Positions 15,439 through 52,762 are shown, counted from the first letter of the stretch. The stretch is DNA of 64,000 nt from an uncultured Bacilli bacterium (GCA_944371525.1 CALVXP010000001.1:24860-88859); one strand, 5' to 3'. Notes: generated from the letters alone by a model not told the origin. Numbers and translations: made by a program.

Positions 15439-15972
15439 ATGAAAAAAACTCGAATTTATGCTGTTATTGGGATATTTATATTATCGTTTTTATGCCATTT
15501 TGTATTTGACTTTTTTCCTTGTATTTTAACTTCTATATTTTTTCCTGTTAATGAGAGTATTTGGGAACACATGAAAATTTTATTCACTGCCACTCTTATG
15601 TATGGTATAATTGACCATCTTATATTAACTAAAAAAAATATTTCTTTTAATAATTTTTCTTTACAACTATTTGCTTCATCCTTTTCAGCTATTCCAATAT
15701 TTTTAGTTATTTATATGCCAATACATTATTTATTTGGAGAATTTTTACCAGTTACATTAGTTATTATGCTACTAACTTATATTATTTGTCAGTATATTTC
15801 CTATAAGATATTAAATTTTAGAGATATACCTTTACTGAATCAGTTGTCTATTATTTTAATAATTATTATGTATGTTATATTTACTTATTTGACTTATTAT
15901 CCATTTGAAAGTTATATATTTTATGATACCACTAAAGGAATTTATGGTATAGAAAAAGAATCTCAAAATTAA
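15439..15972 (+). CDS. Polytopic membrane protein, unknown function
   Basis: 177 aa, five or six hydrophobic helices. Confidence 0.4.
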   Translation: MKKTRIYAVIGIFILSFLCHFVFDFFPCILTSIFFPVNESIWEHMKILFTATLMYGIIDHLILTKKNISFNNFSLQLFASSFSAIPIFLVIYMPIHYLFGEFLPVTLVIMLLTYIICQYISYKILNFRDIPLLNQLSIILIIIMYVIFTYLTYYPFESYIFYDTTKGIYGIEKESQN

Positions 15973-35239: not shown

Positions 35240-37552
35240 TTATTTAGAATTATTTAATATGGTATCTATATTTATTTCTTTTTTATTATCTATAATAGTA
35301 TCTATTATTATATTTTCAATATTAGATACTATTATTTTATTTATTTTTCTTGCTCCAAACTCTTCATAATTACTTAAATTTATTATTTCCTTAATTACAT
35401 TATTTGATATATTAATTTTATATTTTGAATATTTGTTTTTTAACTTTAATAATTCATTTTTTATAATTTTTTTAATATTTTCTTCATTTAATCTATTAAA
35501 ATCAACTATTCCATCTATTCTATTAATAAAAGCTAAGTTAAATTCACTTTTTAATGATGATAAAATTTGATTTTCATGTTCAATATTAAATCCTACACTA
35601 TTATTTTCATATCCTATATTAGTGGTCATTATTATTATATTATTATTAAATTTTATTGTATTTCCTTTTGCATCTTTAATTTCTCCTTCATCTAATATTT
35701 GATATAATAAATTTATAATTTTAGGATGTGCTTTATCTATTTCATCTAATAAAATTACACTATTAGGTTTATTTCTAATTTCTTCTAAAATATTTTTATT
35801 ATCATCATATCCAACATATCCCGGGGCAGATCCAATAATTTTATTTACAGACATTGAATCTGAATATTCACTCATATCTAATCTAATAAAATTATTTTCT
35901 CCAACTAATTCTTTAGCATATATTTTAGCAAGGAAACTTTTTCCTACTCCCGAAGGTCCTACAAACATAAGCGAATAAACTTTATTATCTTTATATCCAA
36001 GTTTAATTCTTTTAGTAATATTTACTAATTTATTAATTGCATTTTCTTGTCCAATAATATTATTTGTTAATTTATTTTCTATGTTTTTAATTGTTTTTGC
36101 ATTATCTTGTAATATTTCATAAACCGGTATTTTTGTCTTAATGTTAATAATATTAGCAACATCTTTGATTGTCACTTCTTTATATTCTGTTCTTTCATTA
36201 TTATTTAATTGAAGTTCATTAATTTTTGACAATATTTCTTTTTCTTCTTTTCGATATTCATATGCTTTTTCTAAATTATTTTCTATAATAAAATCATTCT
36301 TTAATCTACCTAATTTCTTTAATCTTTCATTCAATACATCAATTTCACTTTTATTAATATTACTTTGTATACTTACTTTAGCACATACTTCATCTAGTAC
36401 ATCAATAGATTTATCTGGTTCATTTCGATCATATATATATTTCTCGGTTAAATTTAATATTTCATCTATCAAAAAATCAGATATTTTTACTTTATGATAT
36501 TTCTCATATATAGGTCTTAACTTTAATAATATATTTTTAGTTTTTTCTTTAGAAGGAGATTCTACTATTATTTTCTGAAATCTTCTTTCTAGAGCACCAT
36601 CTTTTTCTATAAATTTTTTATATTCAGAAATAGTTGTAGCCCCAATACATTTTATTTTTCCTCTTGCTAAAGCAGGTTTTAATATATTTGAGGCATCTAT
36701 TGCTCCTTCGGCTCCACCGGCTCCTACTAATGTATGTATTTCGTCAATAAATAAAATTATATCTCCATCTTCTTCAATTTCTTTTAATACTTTTTTTATT
36801 CTTTCTTCAAATTCTCCTCGATATTTTGTTCCTGAGACAGCAGAAGCCATATCTAAGGATATTACTTTTTTATTTTTTAAAGTTTCCGGAACTCTATTAG
36901 ATACAATTAAATTACATAATTCCTCTACTATTGCTGTTTTACCTACCCCTGGTTCACCTATTAATATAGGATTATTTTTAGTTCTTCTACATAATATTTC
37001 AAGTACCCTACCAACTTCTTCTTCTCTTCCAATAACTGGATCTAATTCATTATTTTTAGCTTTATCAGTTAAATTAACTCCTAATTCTTCTATCAATAAC
37101 TTTTTATTTCTTTTATTTCGTACTTTTTTATTTTTTTTAGATATAAAATATTCATAAATATCATCCATATCTACATTCATTTTAATAAATATTCTAATTG
37201 CTATTCCTTCACCCTCTTCAATTAATGATGAAAATAAATTTTCAATTCCAACCTCACCATTTGAATTATCTTTGCTATCAATGATAGCATTTTCTATTAT
37301 TTTCTTTAAAAGCGGTGTATATAAGAATAATTCTGTTTCCTTAATGCCTTGACCTATTATATTTATAATTTCAGTTTTAAATGAATCATAATTGACACCA
37401 TAATCATTTAACTTATTAGAAATTATATTTTTTTCTTTTAATATTGACAATACCAAATGTTCTGTACCAACATAAGGATGTTTTAAATCTTTCATCTCTT
37501 CTTTTGCATTGTTTAAAATAATTTGTGCTTCTTCGCTAAAATTACCTAACAT
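35240..37552 (-). CDS. clpC: Clp ATPase, ClpC-like (Clp_N, D1, M-domain, D2, VGF ClpP-binding loop)
   Basis: Walker A GEPGVGKTA and GPSGVGKS. VGF tripeptide. 770 aa. Confidence 0.8.
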   Translation of the reverse strand: MLGNFSEEAQIILNNAKEEMKDLKHPYVGTEHLVLSILKEKNIISNKLNDYGVNYDSFKTEIINIIGQGIKETELFLYTPLLKKIIENAIIDSKDNSNGEVGIENLFSSLIEEGEGIAIRIFIKMNVDMDDIYEYFISKKNKKVRNKRNKKLLIEELGVNLTDKAKNNELDPVIGREEEVGRVLEILCRRTKNNPILIGEPGVGKTAIVEELCNLIVSNRVPETLKNKKVISLDMASAVSGTKYRGEFEERIKKVLKEIEEDGDIILFIDEIHTLVGAGGAEGAIDASNILKPALARGKIKCIGATTISEYKKFIEKDGALERRFQKIIVESPSKEKTKNILLKLRPIYEKYHKVKISDFLIDEILNLTEKYIYDRNEPDKSIDVLDEVCAKVSIQSNINKSEIDVLNERLKKLGRLKNDFIIENNLEKAYEYRKEEKEILSKINELQLNNNERTEYKEVTIKDVANIINIKTKIPVYEILQDNAKTIKNIENKLTNNIIGQENAINKLVNITKRIKLGYKDNKVYSLMFVGPSGVGKSFLAKIYAKELVGENNFIRLDMSEYSDSMSVNKIIGSAPGYVGYDDNKNILEEIRNKPNSVILLDEIDKAHPKIINLLYQILDEGEIKDAKGNTIKFNNNIIIMTTNIGYENNSVGFNIEHENQILSSLKSEFNLAFINRIDGIVDFNRLNEENIKKIIKNELLKLKNKYSKYKINISNNVIKEIINLSNYEEFGARKINKIIVSNIENIIIDTIIDNKKEINIDTILNNSK

Positions 37553-37612
37553 TTTATACCCCTTTCTTTATATCCTATGAATATTATGTATAACTTTTGC
37601 TAGTTTTAAACA

Positions 37613-37636
37613 CACACAACAAAAAAAGATAATTTT
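37613..37636 (-). terminator. Intrinsic terminator after the T4CP-like gene
   Basis: agataat-tttc-attatct followed by U7 on the minus strand. Confidence 0.5.
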
Positions 37637-37643
37637 CATTATC

Positions 37644-39677
37644 TTAATCATCTGCAAAAAAGTCATCAAAGAAAGCATCATCACTAGTTCCATCTTCATA
37701 TATATTATCAGTTGGATCTGCTTTATCTTCTTCTTGAACCCTAGCTTGTACTTCTTTTTCTTTCTTTTCTTCTTCCTCAAGTTCTGCTATTTTAGCATCT
37801 ATTCTTTTAACTAAATCATCTACATTAAATCCCGAATCACTTGAATTGCTAGAAGAGCCAAATGAAGGTAATCCACCCATACCACCAAATGGTGAACCTC
37901 CTAATGAACTTCCTCCAAACATTGATGACATATCTGGTCCAGACAACATTTCATTCATTTTTTCTTTTTTCTTTGCTTTTACAAATTCTCTTATTTCAAA
38001 TAATTCAACCGATCTTCTTTCCCTAGTAGGAAATACAGCTTTACCATAAGTTTTTCCCCAATCCATCTTAAAATTAGGTACTAATTTTGTTTTAAAAGGC
38101 ATCATCCTAAGTCGCATAGTTATAATTTCAAACTGACTTAATCTTTGTAAATCACTTACTGTAACAAGTGGTGTAGATGCAGTTTTATCTTTCTCTTTTG
38201 ATTTTACTTCACCACACATTTTACTTATTTCCTCTAATGCTGCTAATTCGTTACTTATTAGATACATTATATTACAGTTACCTTTTATAGTTTCTGCATT
38301 ATCTTTACCATATACTTGTGTTAATTGCGCATAGTTTTGAATGATAAAGTTAAATCTAATCAATCTACTTCTTGCCGCTGTTACCATTGTTGTAACATCT
38401 TTTAATGGTGGCATATTAGCAAACTCATCCAATATAAAGTTTGTTCTATAAGGAAGTTTTCCTCCACTTTCTTGAGCTACATCAATCAAAGTTTCATAAC
38501 ATTGTTTAATAAAAATTGTAGCAAGAGGATGCAGTGTCTTCTTTTCATCTTGAATTATCATAAATACTGCTGTCTTCTTTCTTCCAATATCTTTCATATC
38601 AAAATCACTATAACTTAACATTTCAGATAAATTTTCACGAGAAGAAAATATTTTAATTTTTTGTTTAAAAGTTGATAAAATACCACCTTTTGTTTCTTCT
38701 GGCGCATATACGGTACCTGAAGCATTAATATATGCTGGTTTAGAAGGATCTTTTCCATTAAAATATTCTTTGATATAGTTACTATTTGGACCTCCAAATC
38801 TTTCTTCACCAATTGTAGCCATTAAATTTATACTATTTAAATTTATTTGATTTTCTGTTCCATCTTCAAAAAGTCCAAGTGAAAGTCCGGAGAAATAGTC
38901 CGCTCCTGATTTTTCCCAGAAAGGATCAGCATTTCCACTCTTTTCTTCATACAATATATTTAAAGCTAAATCATCCAGTAATTCTATTGCTTTATCCATA
39001 TTTCCTTCTTTATATAAGTTATAAGGAAGCGTCATCGGGTTCCATGCATTACCCTTCTGAGGATCACGGAAATTAAGAACAACTATATTGTATCCTCTTT
39101 CTCTAAGCATCTCTGCCGTATTTTCATATATTTCACCTTTAGGATCTGTTATAATCATTGATTCTTCGTGTTTAGCTAAACTTTGAACAAGTGGGAATAC
39201 AACAATTTGTGTTTTACCCGAACCTGTGGCACCCACTATTAAATTGTGCATTTCACCATCGTCTACCCACATCTTATGTCCATCATTTATAACAACAAGA
39301 CCTGCAGCATCTGCTGAATATGCTTTAGGATCAACTTCTTTCAAAGTTTTCTTCATTTCTCCATCTTTACACCATCTTGAATATCCCTTATCTTTCTTCT
39401 TTGTGGAAAATCCAAATCCCTTTTCTCTATCAAAAAAATAAGAACCTACTGCTGTAAAAATACCTACTAACGCTAATAAAAACAAAGTTAATGTCGCACC
39501 AATAAAATCAGGTGTAAAAGCTTTAAAAGGAACAATTCCATATACTTTTCCTTCGGTAGCCAAAGAATTAGCATTTAATACACCAATTGCACACATATAT
39601 AATAAAAATATACAAAATCCACAAAAAATTGCTATATCTTTTGGTTCTGCTCTAAATTTCATACTATTCCTCCTCAT
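37644..39677 (-). CDS. VirD4/TraG-family type IV coupling protein-like ATPase (orphan), with Gly/Ser-rich and acidic FFDDFFADD C-terminal tail
   Basis: Two N-terminal TM helices. Walker A LIVGATGSGKT. Walker B ILDEFANM. T4CP-like all-alpha insertion. Confidence 0.7.
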   Translation of the reverse strand: MRRNSMKFRAEPKDIAIFCGFCIFLLYMCAIGVLNANSLATEGKVYGIVPFKAFTPDFIGATLTLFLLALVGIFTAVGSYFFDREKGFGFSTKKKDKGYSRWCKDGEMKKTLKEVDPKAYSADAAGLVVINDGHKMWVDDGEMHNLIVGATGSGKTQIVVFPLVQSLAKHEESMIITDPKGEIYENTAEMLRERGYNIVVLNFRDPQKGNAWNPMTLPYNLYKEGNMDKAIELLDDLALNILYEEKSGNADPFWEKSGADYFSGLSLGLFEDGTENQINLNSINLMATIGEERFGGPNSNYIKEYFNGKDPSKPAYINASGTVYAPEETKGGILSTFKQKIKIFSSRENLSEMLSYSDFDMKDIGRKKTAVFMIIQDEKKTLHPLATIFIKQCYETLIDVAQESGGKLPYRTNFILDEFANMPPLKDVTTMVTAARSRLIRFNFIIQNYAQLTQVYGKDNAETIKGNCNIMYLISNELAALEEISKMCGEVKSKEKDKTASTPLVTVSDLQRLSQFEIITMRLRMMPFKTKLVPNFKMDWGKTYGKAVFPTRERRSVELFEIREFVKAKKKEKMNEMLSGPDMSSMFGGSSLGGSPFGGMGGLPSFGSSSNSSDSGFNVDDLVKRIDAKIAELEEEEKKEKEVQARVQEEDKADPTDNIYEDGTSDDAFFDDFFADD

Positions 39678-39876
39678 AATAAATCATTTTAATTATAACA
39701 CATTAAGTAAAATGTATCAATTATTTTTGTTTTATCTAGTAGATTATTTTCTTTTATGATATTATTAAAATAAGGAGATGTTTTATGAATGATTTTTTTG
39801 TTAATGAGGAAATAAAAAAATTTATTTTTAAGTATAAAAAATTTATGACTAAAGATATATATATATAACAAACAAG

Positions 39877-42155
39877 ATGTACTATACATTTTTAAAAAAA
39901 TATAAATACTTATATACTTATATTCATTATAATGATAACAATTATAATTTTTTAAGAAACATTATTATTAACCAAAAACAACTAATTAAAAGACACAACT
40001 CTAATTATATTAATCGCAAACTAATAGAACATAAAGAATATTTTGATAATATGTTTAAAAATATTGATGAAAATATTTTACTTGATGATAATCAACGAAA
40101 AGCAATTATTTGCGAGGAAAATAATCTCTTAGTAATCGCAGAGAAGCAGGTTCTGGGAAAACTACTACAATGACTGCTAAAGTAAAATACTTAATAAATA
40201 AATGTAATTACAACGAAAAAGATATTGCTATTGTCTCTTTTACTAATAAAGAATGTGATGAAATTAAAGACAAATTACAAAATGGATTTGAATTAAATAA
40301 TATTGATGTGTATACATTTCATAAATTAGGTCTTATTTTACTAAGATCTTCTACTAATAAAAAATTAGACATTATTGAAACTAGTGGTCAATTTAAAATA
40401 TTCATAAATTATATAAAAAACATTTTATTTAAAAATAAAGAGAAATTTAATAATTTTTATAATGCATTTAACGATATATTAAATTTAAGTGATAATTTTA
40501 AAAATTTTAACAACTTTAAAGAATATCATGACTATTTATATAAAAGAAAATATACTAAAAATAATACTGATTTAAAAAAATATATTGAGGCTGAGGTTAA
40601 TAAAAGAAAAAACTATTATAAAACAATTAAAGGAGAAGTTGTAAAATCTAAAGAAGAAGTTGATATTGCCAATTTCTTATATTTAAATTCTATTGATTAT
40701 GAATACGAAAAAAGTATAAACAAAAATATTAAAAATAATAAAACTTATAAACCTGACTTTTATATCTATGAAAATGAATTGTTTAACTATGTAGAACATT
40801 TTGGTGGAGATGAATTAGAAAATAACAGTAGTTTTACCGAAAAAGAACTAAAAAATTATTTATCAACATTAAAACTAAAAAAAGAATATCATAAAAAATA
40901 TTTTGATAAAGATTTATTCATAATAAGTTATTCTAACAAAGATAGAAATAAAATTATTAATAACTTAAGAGAAGAAATAAAAAAACGAGGATATACTTTT
41001 AGAAAAAGAAATTTAAACGAAGTATATGAAACACTAAAAAATACTAGTGAAGATGTTTACTTTTATGATTTTATAAATAATCTATTAATACCATTTATTA
41101 GTTATTTTAAAGGAAGTAATAGAGATAAAAATAACTTTAAAGAATTATATAAACAAATACATGATAATAAACTTTTACTAAAACTTAAAGTTATTGAAGA
41201 TTTTTATAATTATTATGAAAATAAACTTAAAGAAAATAATTTAATTGATTTTGAAGATATGATCAACTTAACATATGAAAATATTAATAATATAAAAGAA
41301 AAAGATTTAGAAGTTAATTACAAATATATAATTATTGATGAATATCAAGATATATCAGTACAAAGATATAATTTAACTGCTAAAATTGCTAATTTATTTA
41401 AAGCTAAAATATTTGCAGTGGGAGATAATTATCAAACTATCTTTTCTTTCGCAGGTTCTAGAATTGATTTGTTTACTGAATTTAAAACATATATGAAAGA
41501 TGCAAGTGTAATACCAATTGAAAATACATATAGAAATTCTCAAGAATTGTTAGACCTAGCCAGAGACTTTATTAATAAAAATAAATGTCAAATTGAAAAA
41601 AGATTAAAGTCAAGTAAGCATTTGGATAAACCTGTAGAAATATTTACATATGATGATAGTAATGTATATGCAAGAGATACTAACAAATCTAAAGTAATTA
41701 ATGATATTATTATAAACGTCTATAAAAATAATTATAAAGATAAAATATTACTACTAGACAAATATAAAAAAGATATTGAATCTATTACCAACAATGATTA
41801 TTTTATTAAAAAAAATAAAGAAAAAATAATATGTAATAATTGTAAAGAAGCCAACATTACATATTTAACTATTCATTCTTCAAAAGGATTAGGATTTGAT
41901 CAATGTATTTTAATTAATTCCACTGATGATAAATATGGATTTCCTTCAAAAATTGAAGATGACCCATTAATAAAGTTAATTAAACCTAATAATGAAGAAA
42001 ATATATTATTTCCTGAAGAAAGAAGATTATTTTATGTTGCACTAACTAGAACTAAAAATAAATTATATATAGTTTGTCCTAAATCTAAAGTATCAACATT
42101 CGTAAAGGAAATTGCTTATAACAAAAATGTTTTAATACATAAGAATCCAGAATAA
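39877..42155 (+). pseudogene. UvrD/helicase IV-like SF1 helicase, frameshifted inside Walker A (about 40120-40140)
   Basis: Frame A carries LDDNQRKAI (Q motif) ...NLLVIA. Frame B continues AGSGKTTT, IIIDEYQD (motif II), VALTRTK (motif VI). Sequence gcagagaagcaggttctggg where gcaGGAgcaggttctggg is expected. Confidence 0.6.
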
Positions 42156-45206: not shown

Positions 45207-45398
45207 TCAATAATTCATTACTCCTACAAAATCACTTAAAAAACTAACTAATAAATATGATATACAAAATGCTAAAATTATATAAAATACTCTTGCTTGA
45301 TATTCTTTGTTTTTTTTAAATATTCCATTAATATTTATACTGTCTAAACTCCATATAACAAGTGGGAATATAAGTACATATAAAATAATTTTAGTCAT
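45207..45398 (-). CDS. Small two-TM membrane protein
   Basis: 63-aa ORF overlapping the rpiB stop. Confidence 0.3.
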   Translation of the reverse strand: MTKIILYVLIFPLVIWSLDSININGIFKKNKEYQARVFYIILAFCISYLLVSFLSDFVGVMNY

Positions 45399-45831: not shown

Positions 45832-45899
45832 ATTATTACCTTCTTTCATTATTATTATATCATTATATAGAGAAAAAAAGAAACTAAATAATTTCTTTT

Positions 45900-46196
45900 C
45901 TACTCATTTATAATATCAATTGTGGCATAATCTGTATTAACTAATTGCACTAATACAGGAATATTAAACTTACTTAATTTTTTTATAAATTTATCAAATG
46001 AACTTAAAAACAAATCTATTCTGTTTATTAATAATTCATCAATGCAAGTAAATCCTATTTCTTTCATATAGTTAATTATTTTTATACATTCATCTTCATT
46101 TATTGATAAGCTACTTAATGCCGATGGATTATTATTTTTTATTATTTCAATTAATATATCTTCATTTATGTTTGTTTTTTTTAGAAAATCTATCAT
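45900..46196 (-). CDS. Hypothetical 98-aa protein, fourth gene of a coupled operon
   Basis: ATGA overlap with the upstream gene. Confidence 0.4.
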   Translation of the reverse strand: MIDFLKKTNINEDILIEIIKNNNPSALSSLSINEDECIKIINYMKEIGFTCIDELLINRIDLFLSSFDKFIKKLSKFNIPVLVQLVNTDYATIDIINE

Positions 46197-47986
46197 ATTC
46201 TATAAGACCTCCCTGGATTAAATATTTTATCAACACAATTTTTTATTGTCTTATATTGTTCTTCTGTTAAAATGCTGTCTTTACATACTGCATACATAAT
46301 ACTATCAACAGTACCCGCAATTGATTTTTTTATCATTGTTTCATAATATCTTAATACTTTAAATCTTGAAATAATAACTCCATTAAAATTATATCTATAA
46401 TCATCTTCTTTACACATTTCTTCAAGTCTTTTTATAAAGGAATCGTTATATACTAACACTAGTGGTCCAAAATTATCTTCTTGCATTATTATTTCATTAT
46501 ATTTTGGAGAAAAATCAGGATGATATTGTCCTATTACAGTAGAACCATTTGTTTTATTTATGCCATATCCGTTAAACTTATCAACAGTAATATTTGATGG
46601 CAAAACAACTTTTTTATCAAACTTTTTATATAAATCATTATTAGTTAATCCTTCTTGTTTTGCTTTTATTATTCTATATATCATTGAGTTACCAACTGTA
46701 ACCTTAGAAAAATTACTTAACACATAATCAAAGCATCCAACCTCTATAAAATGATCTAACATAGTTAATGGTTCTGGTGCTTTCATACAACTAAATGTTG
46801 AAGAAATAGTTTCTACTGGTATATTATATAATTCAAAGCCTTTAAATTTTAACGCAAAAGTATTATGTGCAATTACCATAGACGATGAACATTTTTTCAT
46901 AATATCATTTATGTTCGATACACCTTTGTTTAATAAAAATTCTCTATTTTTTATATAATGTTCAAAACCACCGACCATATATTTTTTATCACTTGGCGGT
47001 CCACCTATTCCTGTTTTCTTATATGTCCTTTTTCCTTTTATAAACAAACTTATTTCATCTAAATAATTATCAAATACTTGATTTAATATTAAACCTTCTT
47101 CTTTGCTATCTATTTTAATATTTTCTATTATTGTATTAACTATTTGTGGAGTTGACAAAGTTAATAATGTTACAAATTGATTTTCTCTACTAGAAATATC
47201 GATTCTTATATTGTTTTCTTGCAATATTGACAAAATAGAACTCATATTAATCATACTACCAAATTTTATAATTAATTCTTTGTTTTTATCCTTTAATACA
47301 TTAAAATTATAATTATATTCTTTTAATAAATTTATAATATCTTCTTCATTATTATTAACTTCTAATAATTCTTCTATTTTTTCATCATTATTATCATCTA
47401 TTAAGGAAACATCACCTTTTGTTATATTTGCGATTGAAGAATTAGTTAAATTAATAATTATTTCTATATATTCTTCAATTGATAAATCAGTTCCAATATA
47501 TTTATCTAATATTTTTCTTAACTCTTCTATATCTTTTGCGCTAAAATAATCATTTGCATCTAATCCACTAACTTTTGTTATCAATTCATTTATTTCATCT
47601 GTTTCCTTCATTCTTTTATTTTGCTCTATTTGATTACCAATCTTATCTAATTTATCATTTATTTCATTAATAATATTACTAATTAAATTTTTTATATAAT
47701 TAATTTGCTCTTCTGTTATACTAATTAAATCATTTGCATTCTCAAAAATGAAACGATAAAAATTAATTTTTTCTTTTACTTCCTCAGTAATCTTTGATGT
47801 ATATTTTGATAACTCTTCTAAATTTAAGTCTACTATACTTTTAGGAGTGTTTACTATTTTTTGCAATTCTATTAATAATTTTTTTAATTGATTTTTTTCT
47901 ATTTCTAACTTAGAAATTTCTTTATTGTTTTCACTTATATGGTTTATTTCTTTTTGTAATAATTCAATTATTTTATTTTTTCCCAT
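46193..47986 (-). CDS. Hypothetical 597-aa protein: coiled-coil N-terminal half plus globular C-terminal half, no recognisable catalytic motif
   Basis: ATGA overlap with the 657-aa gene. Heptad-rich N-terminus. Confidence 0.5.
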   Translation of the reverse strand: MGKNKIIELLQKEINHISENNKEISKLEIEKNQLKKLLIELQKIVNTPKSIVDLNLEELSKYTSKITEEVKEKINFYRFIFENANDLISITEEQINYIKNLISNIINEINDKLDKIGNQIEQNKRMKETDEINELITKVSGLDANDYFSAKDIEELRKILDKYIGTDLSIEEYIEIIINLTNSSIANITKGDVSLIDDNNDEKIEELLEVNNNEEDIINLLKEYNYNFNVLKDKNKELIIKFGSMINMSSILSILQENNIRIDISSRENQFVTLLTLSTPQIVNTIIENIKIDSKEEGLILNQVFDNYLDEISLFIKGKRTYKKTGIGGPPSDKKYMVGGFEHYIKNREFLLNKGVSNINDIMKKCSSSMVIAHNTFALKFKGFELYNIPVETISSTFSCMKAPEPLTMLDHFIEVGCFDYVLSNFSKVTVGNSMIYRIIKAKQEGLTNNDLYKKFDKKVVLPSNITVDKFNGYGINKTNGSTVIGQYHPDFSPKYNEIIMQEDNFGPLVLVYNDSFIKRLEEMCKEDDYRYNFNGVIISRFKVLRYYETMIKKSIAGTVDSIMYAVCKDSILTEEQYKTIKNCVDKIFNPGRSYRI

Positions 47987-47988
47987 AA

Positions 47989-49962
47989 TTACACTCCTTT
48001 CTTTTCTCTGTTTTTAGCTATTTTTTCTAATTGTTTTACTGTTACTATTCCATCAAGTAGCATTTTTTGAGCTTTGTCAAAACTTTTTTCATCAAAATCA
48101 GTACCAAATAAATTAAATATTTGTGTTATTTGCTTAATATAAATGTCATATATTCTATTAAACTCATCATATACACTTTGATTTTTGGAATCACTGTATT
48201 TAAAACCAAAATTAACTACTAACACCAAATTAAATCTTTTACTATTTTTAAATTCTTTGCCTATTTTATCTCTATTTTTACTAGAAATTGGTACTTGAAT
48301 AAAGGCTACTCTCGATTGATTTCTTCTTACTTTATACATTTGCGGTTCTCTAATTGGTTTAACAATACTTGTTGTATATTTCTCCATAAATTCGAAATAA
48401 CTTACATTATTCATATTATTTATGCTTCTATATGTATCCATTAAATTATCATTTGCAGATATATTTTCAATTGTATTAAGCACTATTGGAATACCAGCAG
48501 CATCATTTAAAAATATTACATAATTTTCTTGGTCGTTAGAATTTACTACTGTTTCTTCTGGTGAAATTACTATACCTTCACTTTTTATTTTTTCATAATC
48601 TTTATCTAAGTTATCCAAAGATGAAACAATACTATCACTTATTTCTTTTATACTTTCTTTATATTCTTCTACTCCAAATGATAAAATTTCTTCATCAGTT
48701 AATTCCGTTAACATTTTCCAATCATTTATTAATGATTTCATCTTATCTAAATTTTTCATAAATACAATATCAGTAAGTGAAATATCTAATTTAAGAGATT
48801 TTAATCCAACTTCATCTCCTTTTTGTAAATAACCATATGCTATATCAATAAGTTTTTGTTTATCTTTATCATAAGTTGCATATATAAATCTTGACTTTTT
48901 AGATAACTCTAAATACTTATTTATTCTAACTTCTTCTACCAATAATATATCATCATATTTTATATCTAAATATTGTGGCATTTGTTTTTCTTCTGTTTTA
49001 CCTGTATAAGTATTAATTATATATTCAAATATTTCTAATATACTATCTTTATTTTTTTCTAAATTAGGTAATAAATTTTGATTTATATCATCATATATTA
49101 ATTTCCATTTATCTGTTCCTGCGGCTTCATATATTTCTTTTCTTCCATTAATAGTAAATTCACCATCTAAAAGTTCTAATAAGGAACTATCACCAGTTAC
49201 TCCCCTTAATTCAGATATAATGATTTTTATTTTGTTTAATATACTTTTTTCTTCCGGAGTTAAATTTTCTTGTGGTATTTCTTTTGGAGGTTCTAATTCC
49301 AATGTTTGTGATGATTCTTCTCCAATTTCTTTAGTTATCTCACTAGCCCTTGTATCTATCTCTTTTATTCTACTATTTGTTTTTAATTTTTGCTTATTTA
49401 TTTGATATGTTATATTGAATTTAGAAAATTCCATTATTAAATTTAATATTACTTCTTTATCTAATGTTGAACTTTTAAGAAATTCAAAAAATGCATTTAA
49501 TTCATCTGTTTCTAAATATTTATTAATACCATCCTCGTTAAATAAAGTTAAATAATTTTCATAAATACTTATAAGTGCTTGTGATTCTTCATTTTTTCTT
49601 TTTAACTTATATATCTGAATCTCAAGAGTTTTTAAGAGATGGTTTAATCTGTCTGAAATTATTTTGTAATATTTATTTGCTTCAATTATTTGGGGATCAT
49701 TACTTAAAAACGGATTATCAATATAACTACTGTATGCACACAACAACTGGTATTTTTTTATTAAAGATTGATCATTTTTTAAAATTTCTGTACAAATAAC
49801 TTCATGAGTAGAATTATCCAATTTGTTTAATTGATTTCTAGGAGTACTCAAAAACAATTTGATAGCATCATACAATTTTAAAGTATCTTTACTTTTATCT
49901 TGCCTTAAATTACTAATTTTCAATTCTAAATATTCTTTTAGTATTTCATATATATTTTTCAT
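47989..49962 (-). CDS. Hypothetical 657-aa protein, helical N-terminus plus basic C-terminal domain
   Basis: Starts 10 nt after the 161-aa gene's stop. No Walker or nuclease motif seen. Confidence 0.5.
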   Translation of the reverse strand: MKNIYEILKEYLELKISNLRQDKSKDTLKLYDAIKLFLSTPRNQLNKLDNSTHEVICTEILKNDQSLIKKYQLLCAYSSYIDNPFLSNDPQIIEANKYYKIISDRLNHLLKTLEIQIYKLKRKNEESQALISIYENYLTLFNEDGINKYLETDELNAFFEFLKSSTLDKEVILNLIMEFSKFNITYQINKQKLKTNSRIKEIDTRASEITKEIGEESSQTLELEPPKEIPQENLTPEEKSILNKIKIIISELRGVTGDSSLLELLDGEFTINGRKEIYEAAGTDKWKLIYDDINQNLLPNLEKNKDSILEIFEYIINTYTGKTEEKQMPQYLDIKYDDILLVEEVRINKYLELSKKSRFIYATYDKDKQKLIDIAYGYLQKGDEVGLKSLKLDISLTDIVFMKNLDKMKSLINDWKMLTELTDEEILSFGVEEYKESIKEISDSIVSSLDNLDKDYEKIKSEGIVISPEETVVNSNDQENYVIFLNDAAGIPIVLNTIENISANDNLMDTYRSINNMNNVSYFEFMEKYTTSIVKPIREPQMYKVRRNQSRVAFIQVPISSKNRDKIGKEFKNSKRFNLVLVVNFGFKYSDSKNQSVYDEFNRIYDIYIKQITQIFNLFGTDFDEKSFDKAQKMLLDGIVTVKQLEKIAKNREKKGV

Positions 49963-49972
49963 TTGTTCACCC

Positions 49973-50458
49973 CTATTTTAATCGCTTATTGTATTCTGAT
50001 ATTTTCAAATTATTATATTTTTCATTAAACAAGTCATATGCTGATTTCAAGAAAGTTATATCTAATTTTAATAAGATTTGTAACTCTACTATTTTTTTCT
50101 TTATATATTCCAATATACTGTCACTAAAATATAATTTGTTATTTAATAGTTCCTCTATTTCTTTTATAATTTCGTTTACTGTTTGTTTAACCTCGGGATT
50201 TATTACCTTTACTCTTTTAATTCTAACTAATTCTAATCTTATTTTGTCTTCCTCTGTTATTTCTTTGTCATCAATATTATATATTTTCTTTTCATATTTT
50301 TTTAATTCTTCTTCTATATCTTCAAGATGATTTAATCTATTTGCTTTCTTATAAAAATTAAATAAACTAACAAATAATAACTTGTTTTCGGTTGATACTA
50401 AATTATCATTATATATATACTTCTTTATTAAATTAATATCTAATTCTTGTTTATCCAT
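49973..50458 (-). CDS. Hypothetical 161-aa all-helical protein, first gene of the operon
   Basis: AGGAGG RBS and its own promoter. Confidence 0.45.
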   Translation of the reverse strand: MDKQELDINLIKKYIYNDNLVSTENKLLFVSLFNFYKKANRLNHLEDIEEELKKYEKKIYNIDDKEITEEDKIRLELVRIKRVKVINPEVKQTVNEIIKEIEELLNNKLYFSDSILEYIKKKIVELQILLKLDITFLKSAYDLFNEKYNNLKISEYNKRLK

Positions 50459-50482
50459 TTTAAGACCTCCTTACCTACTATA

Positions 50483-50511
50483 ATTTTACCATTTTTTTAC
50501 CTTAAAGTAAA
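50483..50511 (-). promoter_or_regulatory. sigmaA-type promoter TTTACT-17-TAAAAT driving the four-gene operon
   Basis: Read on the minus strand. Followed by AGGAGG and the ATG at 50458. Confidence 0.45.
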
Positions 50512-50512
50512 T

Positions 50513-50536
50513 AAAAAAGAAACCTTATTTAGTTTC
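50513..50536 (-). terminator. Intrinsic terminator overlapping the rpmE stop
   Basis: gaaac-8 nt-gtttc then U6 on the minus strand. Confidence 0.5.
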
Positions 50537-50737
50537 TTGATTAAATCCATATTTCTTATTGAATTTTTCTACTTGTCCTTTTCTTCCACCAAGAGTTTGT
50601 TTTCCTGTATAGAAAGGATGACATTTAGAACATACTTCAACACTAATATTTTCTTTTGTTGATTTTGTCTTAAAAGTATTACCACAAGCACATGTTACAG
50701 TAGCTTCAACATAATTTGGATGAATATTTGCTTTCAT
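50525..50737 (-). CDS. rpmE: 50S ribosomal protein L31 (zinc-binding type)
   Basis: MKANIHPNY...CxC...[10 protein letters not shown]. Confidence 0.9.
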
Positions 50738-50796: not shown

Positions 50797-51489
50797 TCAG
50801 TATTTATTTATTTTTTCAACTATTATTTGTGAAATTTTTTGATATCCTTCATTATTTAAATAAAAATTAGTATTATTTGTAAAGTAATTATTATTATTAA
50901 TTATTTTATCTATATCTATAAATTCAAATCCTCTTTTCTCAACTATATTTTTAAGTTTATAATTGACATAATTAAATATATCATTATTATTATTTGTTGT
51001 ATTGTAATACCCTAATACTATTACTTTTTTATGATTATATCTATCTACTTCTTTTAATAATAATTCCATATCGCTAAGCATTCCATCGATATAACTATAT
51101 ATATTATTATTATCTACAAGTATTTTATAGTAAAGTTCATTCATACCTAATGATATAGTTACAATATCAGCTTTTTTTAACAATTCATTAATAGATACAT
51201 GATCATTATTAACTACTATTTCTTCTTTATATTTTATTATTCTAAGTAAATCTGTAATTCGATAATCTTTATCCACAAAACTATTGTTAAAACCTTTTAA
51301 TTTATTTTTACTAGTTAAATAATTTTTAATACTATCTGTATAATTATAAACTGACACATTACCTTCGTCTGTTATACCCTTAGCTATACCGTCTCCAATA
51401 GAAAGATAGAATAATTCATTATCAATAGTTAAATTATATATAAAATAACAAGATAGAAAAAGAATTAATATAGATATAATTTTTTTCAT
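50797..51489 (-). CDS. SGNH/GDSL-like hydrolase family protein (block I reads GDG, not GDS)
   Basis: Signal anchor. LSIGDGIAKG. Family-level only. Confidence 0.4.
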   Translation of the reverse strand: MKKIISILILFLSCYFIYNLTIDNELFYLSIGDGIAKGITDEGNVSVYNYTDSIKNYLTSKNKLKGFNNSFVDKDYRITDLLRIIKYKEEIVVNNDHVSINELLKKADIVTISLGMNELYYKILVDNNNIYSYIDGMLSDMELLLKEVDRYNHKKVIVLGYYNTTNNNNDIFNYVNYKLKNIVEKRGFEFIDIDKIINNNNYFTNNTNFYLNNEGYQKISQIIVEKINKY

Positions 51490-51511
51490 AGTTTTACCTC
51501 ATTAAATTATA

Positions 51512-52762
51512 TTATATTAATTCTATTTTAGCACCAACCTCTTTTAGTTTTTCAACAATGTTATCGTATCCTCTTAATATATATTTTATATTATCAATAG
51601 TTGTTGTACCCTCTGCAATTAGTCCACAAATTAACATAGATGCTCCTCCTCTTAAATCTGTTGCACTAACATCGCACCCTGTTAATTTTGTTTTACCTCT
51701 TATTATTGCAGTTCTATTTTCATTAACTTTTATATTTGCACCCATTCTTATAGTATCTGGGATATTCTGAAATCTATTTTCCCATATTGTTTCAGTTACT
51801 TTACTTAATCCATTACATTGGGTTAAAAATGGTATTAATGGTTGTTGTAAATCTGTAGGAAATCCTGGATATACTAGTGTTTTAACTTTTACAGCTTTAT
51901 AATTTCCTACTTCTTTTACTGTTATGTAGTCTTCTCCTACTTCCATTTTTACTCCTGCTTCTTTTAATTTAGAAATCAATGATTCTATATGACTTGGTAT
52001 TATTTTATTTATCGTTAAATCATTTCCTAATAACGCCGCAATTATTAAATATGTTCCTGCTTCTATTCTATCAGGTATTACTTCATGGAAACATCCTTTT
52101 AAAGTGTTTACTCCTTCTATTTTAATAATGCTAGTTCCTGCTCCTGTTATTTTAGCACCCATGTTATTTAAATAAGTAGCTACATTCACTATTTCTGGTT
52201 CCTGAGCAGCATTTTCTATAACAGTTTTACCTTTTGCTTTTACTGCTGCTAGCATTATATTTATTGTTGCTCCAACACTTGGAATATCTAAATATATTTT
52301 ATTTCCTTTAAGTTCTTTAGCTTCTAACTTAATATAACTTCCTTCTTCGCTAATAGTAGCTCCTAACTTTTCAAAACCTTTTAAGTGCAAATCTATTGGT
52401 CTTTCTCCAATTGAACATCCTCCTGGAAAATACATTTCAACTTTATGAAATTTACCAAGTAAAGCTCCCATAAAATAATATGATGCTCTTAATTTTACTG
52501 ATAATTCTTCTGGAATTATTTTGTTTTCCACATTTTTAGAATCAATAATGACAGTATTTTTTTCTCTTTTAACATCAGCATTTAAACACATTAATATTTC
52601 TTCTAAACTATCAACATCTGAAATTTCTGGAACATTCATTATTGTTGTTTCTTCATCGCATAATATAGCCGCAGGAATTAAAGCTACTGCACTATTTTTA
52701 GCACCACTTATATTAATTACTCCTCTTAATAAATTCCCACCTTCTATTTTAAATTTAGACAT
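51512..52762 (-). CDS. murA: UDP-N-acetylglucosamine 1-carboxyvinyltransferase
   Basis: EPSP synthase fold. Catalytic Cys in GGCSIGERPID. Confidence 0.9.
   Translation of the reverse strand: MSKFKIEGGNLLRGVINISGAKNSAVALIPAAILCDEETTIMNVPEISDVDSLEEILMCLNADVKREKNTVIIDSKNVENKIIPEELSVKLRASYYFMGALLGKFHKVEMYFPGGCSIGERPIDLHLKGFEKLGATISEEGSYIKLEAKELKGNKIYLDIPSVGATINIMLAAVKAKGKTVIENAAQEPEIVNVATYLNNMGAKITGAGTSIIKIEGVNTLKGCFHEVIPDRIEAGTYLIIAALLGNDLTINKIIPSHIESLISKLKEAGVKMEVGEDYITVKEVGNYKAVKVKTLVYPGFPTDLQQPLIPFLTQCNGLSKVTETIWENRFQNIPDTIRMGANIKVNENRTAIIRGKTKLTGCDVSATDLRGGASMLICGLIAEGTTTIDNIKYILRGYDNIVEKLKEVGAKIELI

What the first reader, a model, noticed from the sequence alone, without database searches (positions are those of the whole stretch)
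45900..50458. Translationally coupled four-gene operon of large unannotatable proteins inserted in a conserved sporulation neighbourhood
Four minus-strand genes (161, 657, 597 and 98 aa) are packed with 10-nt, ATGA and ATGA junctions. They have their own TTTACT-17-TAAAAT promoter and AGGAGG RBS (50459-50511), and a terminator separates them from rpmE. None shows a Walker, nuclease, HD or other standard catalytic motif. Two have long heptad-rich (coiled-coil-like) N-terminal halves followed by globular C-terminal domains (for example ...MYKVRRNQSRVAFIQVPISSKNRDKIGKEFKNSKRFNLVLVVNFGFK). The block sits between rpmE/murA and rpiB/spoIID/spoIIQ/spoIIID/mbl, which form a contiguous locus in other Clostridia, so it looks like a lineage-specific inserted module. 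This is the strongest candidate in the window for an undescribed multi-protein system. Possibilities include a sporulation or coat morphogenetic complex, a cytoskeletal or partition-like system, or a defence module.
Basis: partly seen in the sequence, partly recalled or inferred. Interest (0 to 1): 0.7.

Follow-up and report, generated by a model that had tools for sequence, protein, structure and literature searches.

The report
Conserved orphan four-gene operon, gut Bacilli
Four tightly packed genes of unknown function are real, are kept together in many uncultured low-GC gut bacteria, and match no described protein family, so they probably encode an undescribed soluble protein complex whose function is still only a guess.

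Summary
The four minus-strand genes exist as described: gA 161 aa, gB 657 aa, gC 597 aa and gD 98 aa. One junction was misread: gB/gC is TAAttATG, not ATGA. The genes are under purifying selection. The order A-B-C-D is kept in about 20 species-level MAGs of uncultured Bacilli, and a variant B'-HTH-C-D occurs in six more. The gC family alone has 520 clusters at 50% identity in 1.84 billion representatives.

No protein reaches the threshold of any Pfam, NCBIfam or PADLOC family, any PDB sequence, or a convincing PDB fold. The only significant PHROGs match is to a family of unknown function.

New anatomy:
- gB and gC share an N-terminal ~190-aa helical domain.
- The centre of gC holds two copies of the helical module that gD carries alone.
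- The basic C-terminal module of gC is duplicated in some relatives.
- The basic C-terminal domain of gB may be Gp49/HigB-like. This is a weak lead.

The block is not a recent insertion, because its GC content equals the background. It is not tied to sporulation genes, because its neighbours differ between lineages: ftsAZ/rpsO-pnp, rpoA-rplQ, thrS and tgt.

My best guess, at low confidence, is a non-enzymatic cytoplasmic complex that binds a ligand, possibly nucleic acid, through its basic C-terminal domains. Interest is moderate.

The parts
50483..50511 (-). Promoter-like site TTTACT-17-TAAAAT with a TG extended -10, upstream of gA
   Evidence: 9 of 12 matches, TG present. Such sites are no more frequent here than in shuffled sequence (50 found, 52.5 expected), so this is a candidate only.
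50518..50537 (-). Weak hairpin (7-bp stem, 2 G-C pairs) overlapping the rpmE stop codon and followed by a U-run. Possible leaky terminator between rpmE and the block.
   Evidence: z -1.7; 11 of 200 shuffles fold as well. The terminator scan did not detect it.
50466..50471 (-). AGGAGG ribosome-binding site, 7 nt upstream of the gA start codon
   Evidence: Read from the sequence.
49973..50458 (-). gA, 161 aa. Small helical protein, pI 7.7. Present upstream of gB in type-1 clusters only.
   Evidence: No similarity to gB, gC or gD, or to the type-2 HTH-like protein. dN/dS 0.14-0.16.
47989..49962 (-). gB, 657 aa. N-terminal domain shared with gC, an acidic helical middle, and a basic alpha/beta C-terminal domain.
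   Evidence: dN/dS 0.21-0.29.
49402..49962 (-). gB N-terminal helical domain (aa 1-187), paralogous to the N-terminal domain of gC
   Evidence: hhalign gB family vs gC family: probability 94.6%, E 7e-8. Also matches the N-terminus of type-2 B': probability 97.8%, E 1e-12.
47992..48552 (-). gB C-terminal domain (aa 471-657), pI 9.3, invariant R551. Possibly a Gp49/HigB-like (RelE/ParE superfamily) fold with an insertion of about 18 residues.
   Evidence: Chain of weak links. The type-1 and type-2 C-terminal domains align at hhalign probability 76%, E 2.4e-5. The type-2 domain hits phrog_2523 (function unknown) in 4 of 5 B' sequences from L021-L023/L025/L026 (L024 gave no hit), best E 1.4e-5. 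It hits Pfam Gp49 in 2 of 6, below threshold. The AlphaFold model here has pLDDT below 50. PDB and NCBIfam gave nothing.
46193..47986 (-). gC, 597 aa. The most widely detected gene of the cluster, together with gD.
   Evidence: The family has 520 clusters (E<=1e-3) among 1.84e9 representatives, nearly all 560-650 aa and matched over their full length.
47423..47986 (-). gC N-terminal helical domain (aa 1-188), paralogous to that of gB
   Evidence: Modelled at pLDDT 70-89.
47012..47359 (-). gC helical module M1 (aa 210-325), of the same type as gD
   Evidence: hhalign gD vs M1: probability 86%, E 5e-6. Controls against the N- and C-terminal parts of gC give probability below 1%.
46697..46984 (-). 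gC helical module M2 (aa 335-430), of the same type as gD. Contains invariant D411 and E415.
   Evidence: hhalign gD vs M2: probability 88%, E 3e-6. M1 vs M2: probability 75%, E 2.5e-5. Invariant residues.
46196..46459 (-). gC C-terminal module (aa 510-597): helix, beta-hairpin, three helices. Basic, with invariant Y532, S540 and K543 and near-invariant I539, R541, V544 and R546.
   Evidence: Six longer family members carry this module as a tandem duplicate.
45900..46196 (-). gD, 98 aa. Acidic (pI 4.6) free-standing helical module. The best-conserved protein of the block. Its start overlaps the gC stop codon (ATGA).
   Evidence: Pfam mTERF matches are below threshold only.
45874..45901 (-). 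Terminator-like hairpin (12-bp stem) that starts in the gD stop codon and marks the end of the operon
   Evidence: -14.9 kcal/mol, z -3.75, 0 of 200 shuffles fold as well.

Best explanation
The block is a single transcription unit that encodes a soluble, non-enzymatic, mostly alpha-helical multi-subunit complex. It is specific to a clade of uncultured, very low-GC gut Bacilli and is inherited vertically there.

Shown:
- gB and gC are paralogues in their first ~190 residues.
- The centre of gC is built from two copies of the helical module that gD encodes on its own.
- Both large proteins end in basic C-terminal domains with a few invariant Arg, Lys, Ser and Tyr residues.
- The C-D pair was detected in most loci, and B (or B') precedes it.

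Inferred:
- The shared N-terminal domains let gB and gC pair with each other or dock on a common partner (gA is a candidate).
- gD associates with the cognate modules of gC.
- The basic C-terminal domains are the working ends and bind a ligand, most likely nucleic acid or the ribosome. These are the possibly HigB/Gp49-like domain of gB and the helix-hairpin-helix module of gC.

On this reading the complex is a tethering or regulatory nucleoprotein scaffold, not an enzyme, a filament or a membrane machine.
For: - Real genes under purifying selection: dN/dS 0.04-0.29.
- Tight junctions, and hairpins at both ends of the block.
- Conserved order and gene sizes in 24 loci from different species.
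- Present, and 99.7-100% identical, in all 10 contigs of a sister species.
- No compositional anomaly.
- Housekeeping neighbours that differ between lineages, with no mobile-element genes.
- Paralogy of the gB and gC N-terminal domains: probability 94.6%, E 7e-8.
- gD-type modules in gC: E 3e-6 to 5e-6, with clean negative controls.
- No catalytic motifs and no transmembrane segments. No enzyme families.
- Basic C-terminal domains, pI 9.3 and 8.8, on otherwise acidic proteins.
- Invariant Y532, S540 and K543 and near-invariant I539, R541, V544 and R546 in gC, and invariant R551 in gB.
- The gC C-terminal module occurs as a tandem duplicate in some members, as independent binding domains often do.
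- Weak pointers to nucleic-acid-binding folds:
  - Pfam mTERF hits below threshold in 3 of 20 gD and 1 of 78 gC sequences.
  - Gp49/HigB-like and phrog_2523 hits in the B' C-terminal domain.
  - An HTH-like gene inside the type-2 cluster, whose best PDB hits are both Cro/C1-type HTH proteins as I recall them (the output does not say so), at E 0.12-0.49.
- Prokaryotic mTERF-like DNA binders from Bacillota MAGs have been reported (PMC11417379).
Against: - No ligand or interaction was tested. All assembly steps are inferences.
- gD is acidic (pI 4.6), which is unusual for a nucleic-acid binder.
- The mTERF and Gp49 matches are all below the curated thresholds.
- Foldseek found no fold match: best E 0.85.
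- The C-terminal domain of gB is modelled too poorly to judge.
- PDB profile searches found no toxin, HTH or mTERF chain at a significant E-value.
- Protein sequences diverge 2-4 times faster than the neighbours between species. That would also fit a low-constraint structural protein.
Confidence: 0.35

Rival explanations
1. It is a cytoskeletal or cell-division scaffold. The long helical proteins would act like EzrA, DivIVA or SepF, organising the divisome or cell shape in this lineage.
For: - The proteins are mostly helical, with long helices and no enzymatic motifs.
- In the type-2 lineage (L021-L023, L025, L026) the cluster directly follows ftsA-ftsZ.
- In the window it lies 2.7 kb from mbl.
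- It is a core-genome gene set, always present.
Against: - The ftsAZ adjacency is confined to one sub-lineage, so it counts as one evolutionary event. All other contexts are unrelated to division.
- There is no membrane anchor or amphipathic targeting segment.
- No Pfam or NCBIfam division family matches.
- It does not explain the basic alpha/beta C-terminal domains or the HTH-like gene in type-2 clusters.
Confidence: 0.22
2. It is a domesticated toxin-antitoxin or abortive-infection type defence system. The C-terminal domain of gB would be a HigB/Gp49-like RNase held in check by partners: gA in type 1 and the HTH protein in type 2. gC and gD would act as sensor or scaffold.
For: - Gp49-like Pfam hits below threshold in 2 of 6 B' proteins, one of them covering profile positions 2-88 of 90.
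- phrog_2523, a 108-position profile of a phage protein family, hits 4 of the 5 B' C-terminal domains from L021-L023/L025/L026 (L024 gave no hit), best E 1.4e-5.
- B' is followed by an HTH-like gene, which is the HigB-HigA gene order.
- The type-1 C-terminal domain aligns with the type-2 domain, E 2.4e-5.
- Between species, gB evolves fastest: 71% identity where the neighbours are 94-100%.
Against: - No PADLOC match for any of the four proteins.
- Never seen next to integrases, transposases or other defence genes.
- Present in every contig examined of a species, and 99.7-100% identical there.
- No relatives in viral contigs.
- Consistent vertical divergence of all four genes.
- No toxin or antitoxin chain among PDB hits.
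- The window's own gB has no Gp49 or phrog_2523 hit.
Confidence: 0.15
3. It is a sporulation or spore-coat morphogenetic complex, as its position beside spoIID, spoIIQ and spoIIID suggests.
For: In the window and its closest relatives the block lies between rpmE and rpiB-spoIID-M23 peptidase-spoIIID-mbl.
Against: - The linkage disappears in all more distant genomes.
- There is no similarity to SpoIVA, SpoVID, SafA, CotE or any sporulation family in Pfam or NCBIfam.
- The promoter-like site looks sigma-A-like, though that match is not significant.
Confidence: 0.05

Closest known systems
mTERF / pTERF helical-repeat nucleic-acid-binding proteins (Pfam PF02536; prokaryotic pTERF of PMC11417379)
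   Different: All scores are below the Pfam cut-off (13.3 bits for the window's gD, where 23.1 are needed). Foldseek does not find mTERF. gD is acidic, whereas I recall mTERF and pTERF as basic DNA binders (not checked). pTERFs are single proteins with 3-11 tandem repeats. Here the modules sit inside a four-gene complex between a paralogous N-terminal domain and a distinct C-terminal module. I could not obtain the pTERF1 sequence for a direct comparison.
HigB/Gp49-like toxins of the RelE/ParE superfamily, with a HigA-type HTH antitoxin (Pfam PF05973)
   Same: The C-terminal domain of B' has the pattern strand, two helices, three strands, with a conserved 'RQARVVY' strand. It has sub-threshold Gp49 hits and a phrog_2523 hit. 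A small HTH-like gene follows it, in HigB-HigA order. The C-terminal domain of gB aligns to it and keeps the Arg as R551.
   Different: The domain is fused to about 330-470 residues of helical protein, rather than standing alone at about 100 aa. The window version has an insertion of about 18 residues and no HTH partner. Nothing reaches threshold in Pfam, NCBIfam or PDB for the window protein. The genomic behaviour is that of a core gene, not a mobile toxin-antitoxin pair.
EzrA / DivIVA-type helical division scaffolds of Firmicutes
   Same: Large cytoplasmic helical proteins without enzymatic motifs. In one sub-lineage the cluster is adjacent to ftsA-ftsZ.
Coiled-coil anti-phage systems (Lamassu LmuB and similar)
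   Same: A multi-gene cluster that includes a long helical protein.
   Different: PADLOC gave only LmuB at E 0.47. There is no ATPase or nuclease partner. The cluster is not in a defence island, and its presence does not vary.

Membership tests
mTERF (Pfam PF02536) | Score at or above the Pfam gathering threshold (23.1 bits) for the mTERF repeat profile | tested here: not met
   gD scores 13.3 bits, E 0.039. 3 of 20 gD homologues hit, best E 0.0052. 1 of 78 gC homologues hits, E 0.0084.
mTERF (Pfam PF02536) | Superhelical array of three-helix repeats that superposes on a solved mTERF structure | tested here: inconclusive
pTERF (PMC11417379) | Sequence homology to pTERF1 (MBQ3414883.1) and sequence-specific dsDNA binding | not testable with these tools
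   The held supplements give only the accession number.
Gp49/HigB-like toxin (Pfam PF05973; RelE/ParE superfamily) | Score at or above the Pfam gathering threshold (23.9 bits) | tested here: not met
   The window's gB has no hit. Type-2 B' scores 16.7 and 18.4 bits in 2 of 6 sequences. NCBIfam found nothing.
Gp49/HigB-like toxin (Pfam PF05973; RelE/ParE superfamily) | RelE/ParE fold (strand, two helices, three-stranded sheet) in a confident structure | tested here: inconclusive
Gp49/HigB-like toxin (Pfam PF05973; RelE/ParE superfamily) | Adjacent cognate antitoxin | tested here: inconclusive
   An HTH-like gene of about 80 aa follows B' in type-2 loci. Its best PDB hits are Cro/C1-type HTH proteins as I recall them, at E 0.12-0.49. 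No such gene is present in the window.
Known anti-phage defence systems (PADLOC-DB 2.0) | Match of any component to a PADLOC model | tested here: not met
   Only LmuB at E 0.47 for gC. Nothing for gA, gB or gD.
SMC/condensin-like or other P-loop coiled-coil machines | Walker A and Walker B ATPase motifs | tested here: not met
   The regular-expression scan found none in any of the four proteins. No AAA or SMC Pfam hits.
Sporulation / coat morphogenetic proteins (SpoIVA, SpoVID, SafA, CotE) | Family match in Pfam or NCBIfam, and conserved linkage to sporulation genes | tested here: not met
   No family match. The linkage to spoIID and spoIIID holds only in the closest relatives.
EzrA-type division scaffold | N-terminal transmembrane anchor plus spectrin-like repeats, and a Pfam EzrA match | tested here: not met

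The most novel reading that the evidence does not exclude
The operon encodes a lineage-wide, domesticated nucleoprotein machine. A HigB-like RNA- or ribosome-binding head (gB) and mTERF-like repeat modules (gC and gD) are joined through paralogous N-terminal domains. The machine has taken over a housekeeping step of gene expression, such as transcription termination or roadblocking, RNA surveillance or ribosome-associated control, in a reduced-genome clade of gut Bacilli. It would then be the first bacterial multi-subunit mTERF-type system and a case of a toxin fold recruited to a core function.
Probability: 0.1. Interest if true: 0.8.

Novelty: categorically new. Interest (0 to 1): 0.5.

Why it matters
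The gC family is large: 520 clusters at 50% identity. It appears fixed in the core genome of a widespread but uncultured group of gut Bacilli, yet it is absent from Pfam, NCBIfam, PADLOC and the PDB. A 4.6-kb operon that is always present in small, AT-rich genomes is likely to do something important for these organisms.

The domain map produced here gives concrete constructs to test:
- the shared N-terminal domain of gB and gC;
- the repeated gD-type module;
- the two basic C-terminal domains.

If the weak mTERF-like and HigB-like leads hold, the system would connect a eukaryotic-organelle repeat family and a toxin fold to a bacterial housekeeping complex. If they fail, it is still a clean example of a new protein-complex family that needs structural and genetic work.

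Tried and rejected
Searches that found nothing:
- Pfam, NCBIfam and PADLOC on all four proteins gave nothing significant.
- Pfam gave nothing on 20 gD, 13 gB and 78 gC homologues.
- PDB profile searches with six alignments found nothing.
- No gC relatives were found in viral contigs.
- Rfam and tRNA scans of the whole window were empty.

Searches limited by the tools:
- A second word-indexed protein search with a 22-sequence profile returned the same 10 proteins.
The gB model therefore rests on sequences at least 65% identical, and its C-terminal domain is unusable.
- The afdb50 library was not available.
- The pTERF1 sequence is not in the held supplements.

Fold searches:
- Foldseek against the PDB with the gC model returned only coiled-coil noise.

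Ideas rejected:
- That the long gC family members are C-D fusions. They are duplications of the C-terminal module.
- gA as a relative of gB, gC or the type-2 HTH-like protein.
- A second gD-like gene at 15439-15972. It is a membrane protein and unrelated.
- Recent horizontal insertion. The composition is flat.
- Strain-level hypervariability. Copies within a species are 99.7-100% identical.

Full report
**Observation.**
- gA, 49973-50458, 161 aa
- gB, 47989-49962, 657 aa
- gC, 46193-47986, 597 aa
- gD, 45900-46196, 98 aa

The A/B gap is 10 nt and C/D overlap as ATGA. AGGAGG lies 7 nt before the gA start codon. TTTACT-17-TAAAAT, with a TG extended -10, is at 50511-50483. In this 24% GC DNA such sites are no more frequent than in shuffled sequence (50 found, 52.5 expected), so the promoter is only a candidate.

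The 'terminator' after rpmE is a weak 7-bp hairpin with a U-run. Its fold z-score is -1.7 and the terminator scan missed it. A much stronger hairpin begins in the gD stop codon: 12-bp stem, z -3.75, 0 of 200 shuffles as stable. It bounds the unit on the other side.

None of the four proteins has a Walker, HD, DEAD or Fic motif or a transmembrane segment; the only hits to the loose HNH and PD-(D/E)xK patterns are three isolated matches that I take to be chance.

**Are the genes real?** Against two sister species (L003, L004), dN/dS is 0.04-0.29 for the four genes and 0.00-0.25 for the neighbours. That is purifying selection, but more relaxed than on the neighbours. Protein identity is 71-86% where murA, the GDSL-like gene, rpmE, rpiB and spoIID are 94-100%.

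Ten further metagenome contigs encode the identical L31 protein. All ten carry the block between rpmE and rpiB, intact and 99.7-100% identical to one another. So there is no presence/absence polymorphism and no strain-level hypervariability.

**Distribution and context.** A scan of one genome per species found 25 loci. All are uncultured gut MAGs labelled Bacilli, 'Tenericutes', Firmicutes CAG:321 and the like.

The order A(~146-178 aa)-B(~580-706)-C(~578-616)-D(96-99) recurs in L003-L020.

L021-L023, L025 and L026 carry a variant: ftsA-ftsZ-B'(~490 aa)-[~80-aa HTH-like gene]-C-D-rpsO-pnp. L024 has tgt-B'-C-D.

Other contexts are:
- rpoA-rplQ upstream and an S41 protease downstream;
- a U32 peptidase upstream and thrS downstream;
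- a transglutaminase-like gene and an AAA ATPase upstream, and an HD-domain gene downstream;
- an AMP-binding enzyme and a hybrid kinase upstream, and an HTH-WYL gene downstream;
- prsW downstream.

Only C (24 loci) and D (23 loci) were detected in nearly every locus when the neighbours were clustered. I saw no integrase, transposase or defence gene nearby. The block's GC content (22-23%) equals the window's.

An exhaustive HMMER search with the gC profile over 1.84 billion representatives gave 520 clusters at E<=1e-3 and 128 at E<=1e-30. Almost all are 560-650 aa and matched over their full length. No relative was found in viral contigs.

The block is therefore a vertically inherited, lineage-wide core cluster. 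Its position beside sporulation genes is particular to the window's genus-level group. It is not an island inserted into a sporulation locus.

**Comparison with known families.** Everything was negative:
- Pfam, NCBIfam and PADLOC gave nothing at threshold for any protein.
- Pfam also gave nothing for 20 gD, 13 gB or 78 gC homologues.
- Six profile searches of PDB sequences were negative.
- No source gives any of the proteins a name.

The AlphaFold models are of moderate quality:
- gC has pLDDT 64. It is good for residues 1-190, 214-318, 340-420 and 530-590.
- gB has pLDDT 64, but its C-terminal 200 residues are below 50.

**New anatomy from profile-profile comparison.**
1. The first ~187 residues of gB are homologous to the first ~188 of gC: probability 94.6%, E 7e-8. 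The N-terminus of type-2 B' matches gB at probability 97.8%, E 1e-12.
2. gD matches two separate central segments of gC: aa 210-325 (probability 86%, E 5e-6) and aa 335-430 (probability 88%, E 3e-6). The two segments match each other (probability 75%, E 2.5e-5). gD against the N- or C-terminal parts of gC gives probability below 1%. So gC carries two copies of the module that gD encodes alone.
3. The last ~90 residues of gC form a helix, a beta-hairpin and three helices. Y532, S540 and K543 are invariant; I539, R541, V544 and R546 are nearly so. D411 and E415, in M2, are also invariant. Six longer family members carry this module as a tandem duplicate, not as a fusion with gD.
4. The C-terminal domain of gB (aa 471-657, pI 9.3, invariant R551) aligns end to end with the C-terminal domain of B': probability 76%, E 2.4e-5. 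The type-1 version has an insertion of about 18 residues. The B' domain hits phrog_2523, a phage family of unknown function with a 108-position profile, in four of the five B' proteins from L021-L023, L025 and L026; L024's gave no hit. The best E is 1.4e-5. It hits Pfam Gp49 (HigB-like) below threshold in 2 of 6 sequences.
5. In type-2 clusters an HTH-like gene follows B', which is the HigB-HigA gene order. Its best PDB hits are 3op9 and an MBF1-like protein, both Cro/C1-type HTH proteins as I recall them, but at E 0.12-0.49.
6. gA is unrelated to all the others.

Charge is uneven along the proteins. They are acidic overall (pI 4.6-5.4 for gB, gC and gD) but have basic C-terminal domains and a basic linker in gC.

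**Interpretation.** What is shown is a conserved, co-oriented, tightly packed gene set. It encodes soluble helical proteins that share modules pairwise: gB and gC through the N-terminal domain, gC and gD through the helical module. Sharing of this kind is typical of subunits of one assembly.

What is inferred is the following. gB and gC pair or dock through the shared N-terminal domain. gD binds the cognate modules. The basic C-terminal domains bind the ligand, and I think nucleic acid or the ribosome most likely. The grounds for that are:
- the charge distribution and the invariant Arg, Lys and Ser residues;
- the duplicable C-terminal module of gC;
- the weak but repeated mTERF pointers;
- the Gp49/HigB-like and HTH leads;
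- the 2024 report of DNA-binding prokaryotic mTERF-like proteins from Bacillota MAGs (PMC11417379).

I put this at about 0.35. Against it:
- gD is acidic;
- every fold or family pointer is below threshold;
- no interaction was tested.

**Rivals.**
- A division or cytoskeletal scaffold (0.22) fits the helical, motif-free proteins and the ftsAZ adjacency. That adjacency is one sub-lineage event, and there is no membrane anchor.
- A domesticated toxin-antitoxin or defence system (0.15) fits the HigB-like lead and the fast evolution of gB. It is contradicted by the negative PADLOC result, the core-genome behaviour, the within-species invariance and the lack of mobile context.
- A sporulation or coat role (0.05) loses its only support once more distant genomes are examined.

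**Novelty and score.** No component passes a membership test for any known family, and I found no description of this cluster architecture. I therefore rate it categorically new. One caveat applies: conserved operons of unknown function are not rare in poorly studied lineages, and part of the negative evidence reflects shallow alignments and strongly biased composition.

Interest is 0.5. It is a well-defined, large, core-genome orphan family with a testable domain map, but there is no demonstrated mechanism and no direct bearing yet on a long-standing question.

Noticed in passing
window 35240-42155: A VirD4/TraG-type type IV secretion coupling protein lies at 37644-39677 (minus strand; PF02534, E 4e-54). 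On one side is a ClpC-like ATPase (35240-37552). On the other is a plus-strand UvrD-like helicase (40170-42155) in the lowest-GC stretch of the window (19.6%). This may be a remnant of a conjugative element.
   Followed up: partly
window 50797-52762: Between murA and rpmE there is a GDSL/SGNH-like gene. In B. subtilis, as I recall, the order is murAB-glpX-rho-rpmE. I could not test whether this lineage lacks Rho.
   Followed up: no
P0047, P0048, P0055, P0062, P0081, P0073 (gC family members): These 680-746-aa members carry a tandem duplication of the last ~100-aa module (...YNFxGVxISRxKVLR...). This shows that the module is an independent domain.
   Followed up: partly
L021-L026, e.g. L022 5161-14529: A variant cluster: ftsA-ftsZ-B'(~490 aa)-[~80-aa HTH-like gene]-C-D-rpsO-pnp. 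It has no gA, and the C-terminal domain of B' gives sub-threshold Gp49/HigB-like and phrog_2523 hits.
   Followed up: partly
L028-L037 (10 metagenome contigs): The L31 protein is 100% identical between the window's species and a sister species, while gB is only 71% identical. Within the sister species the block proteins are 99.7-100% identical. That is more uniform than the adjacent GDSL-like gene (98.3%) and spoIID (98.5%).
   Followed up: yes
window 1-64000: No tRNA gene and no Rfam family at gathering threshold anywhere in the 64 kb, and GC content of 20-29% throughout.
   Followed up: no
window 45207-45398: A 63-aa DUF1146 membrane protein overlaps the end of rpiB. It is 98-100% identical across sister species, which is very high conservation for so small an ORF.
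   Followed up: no
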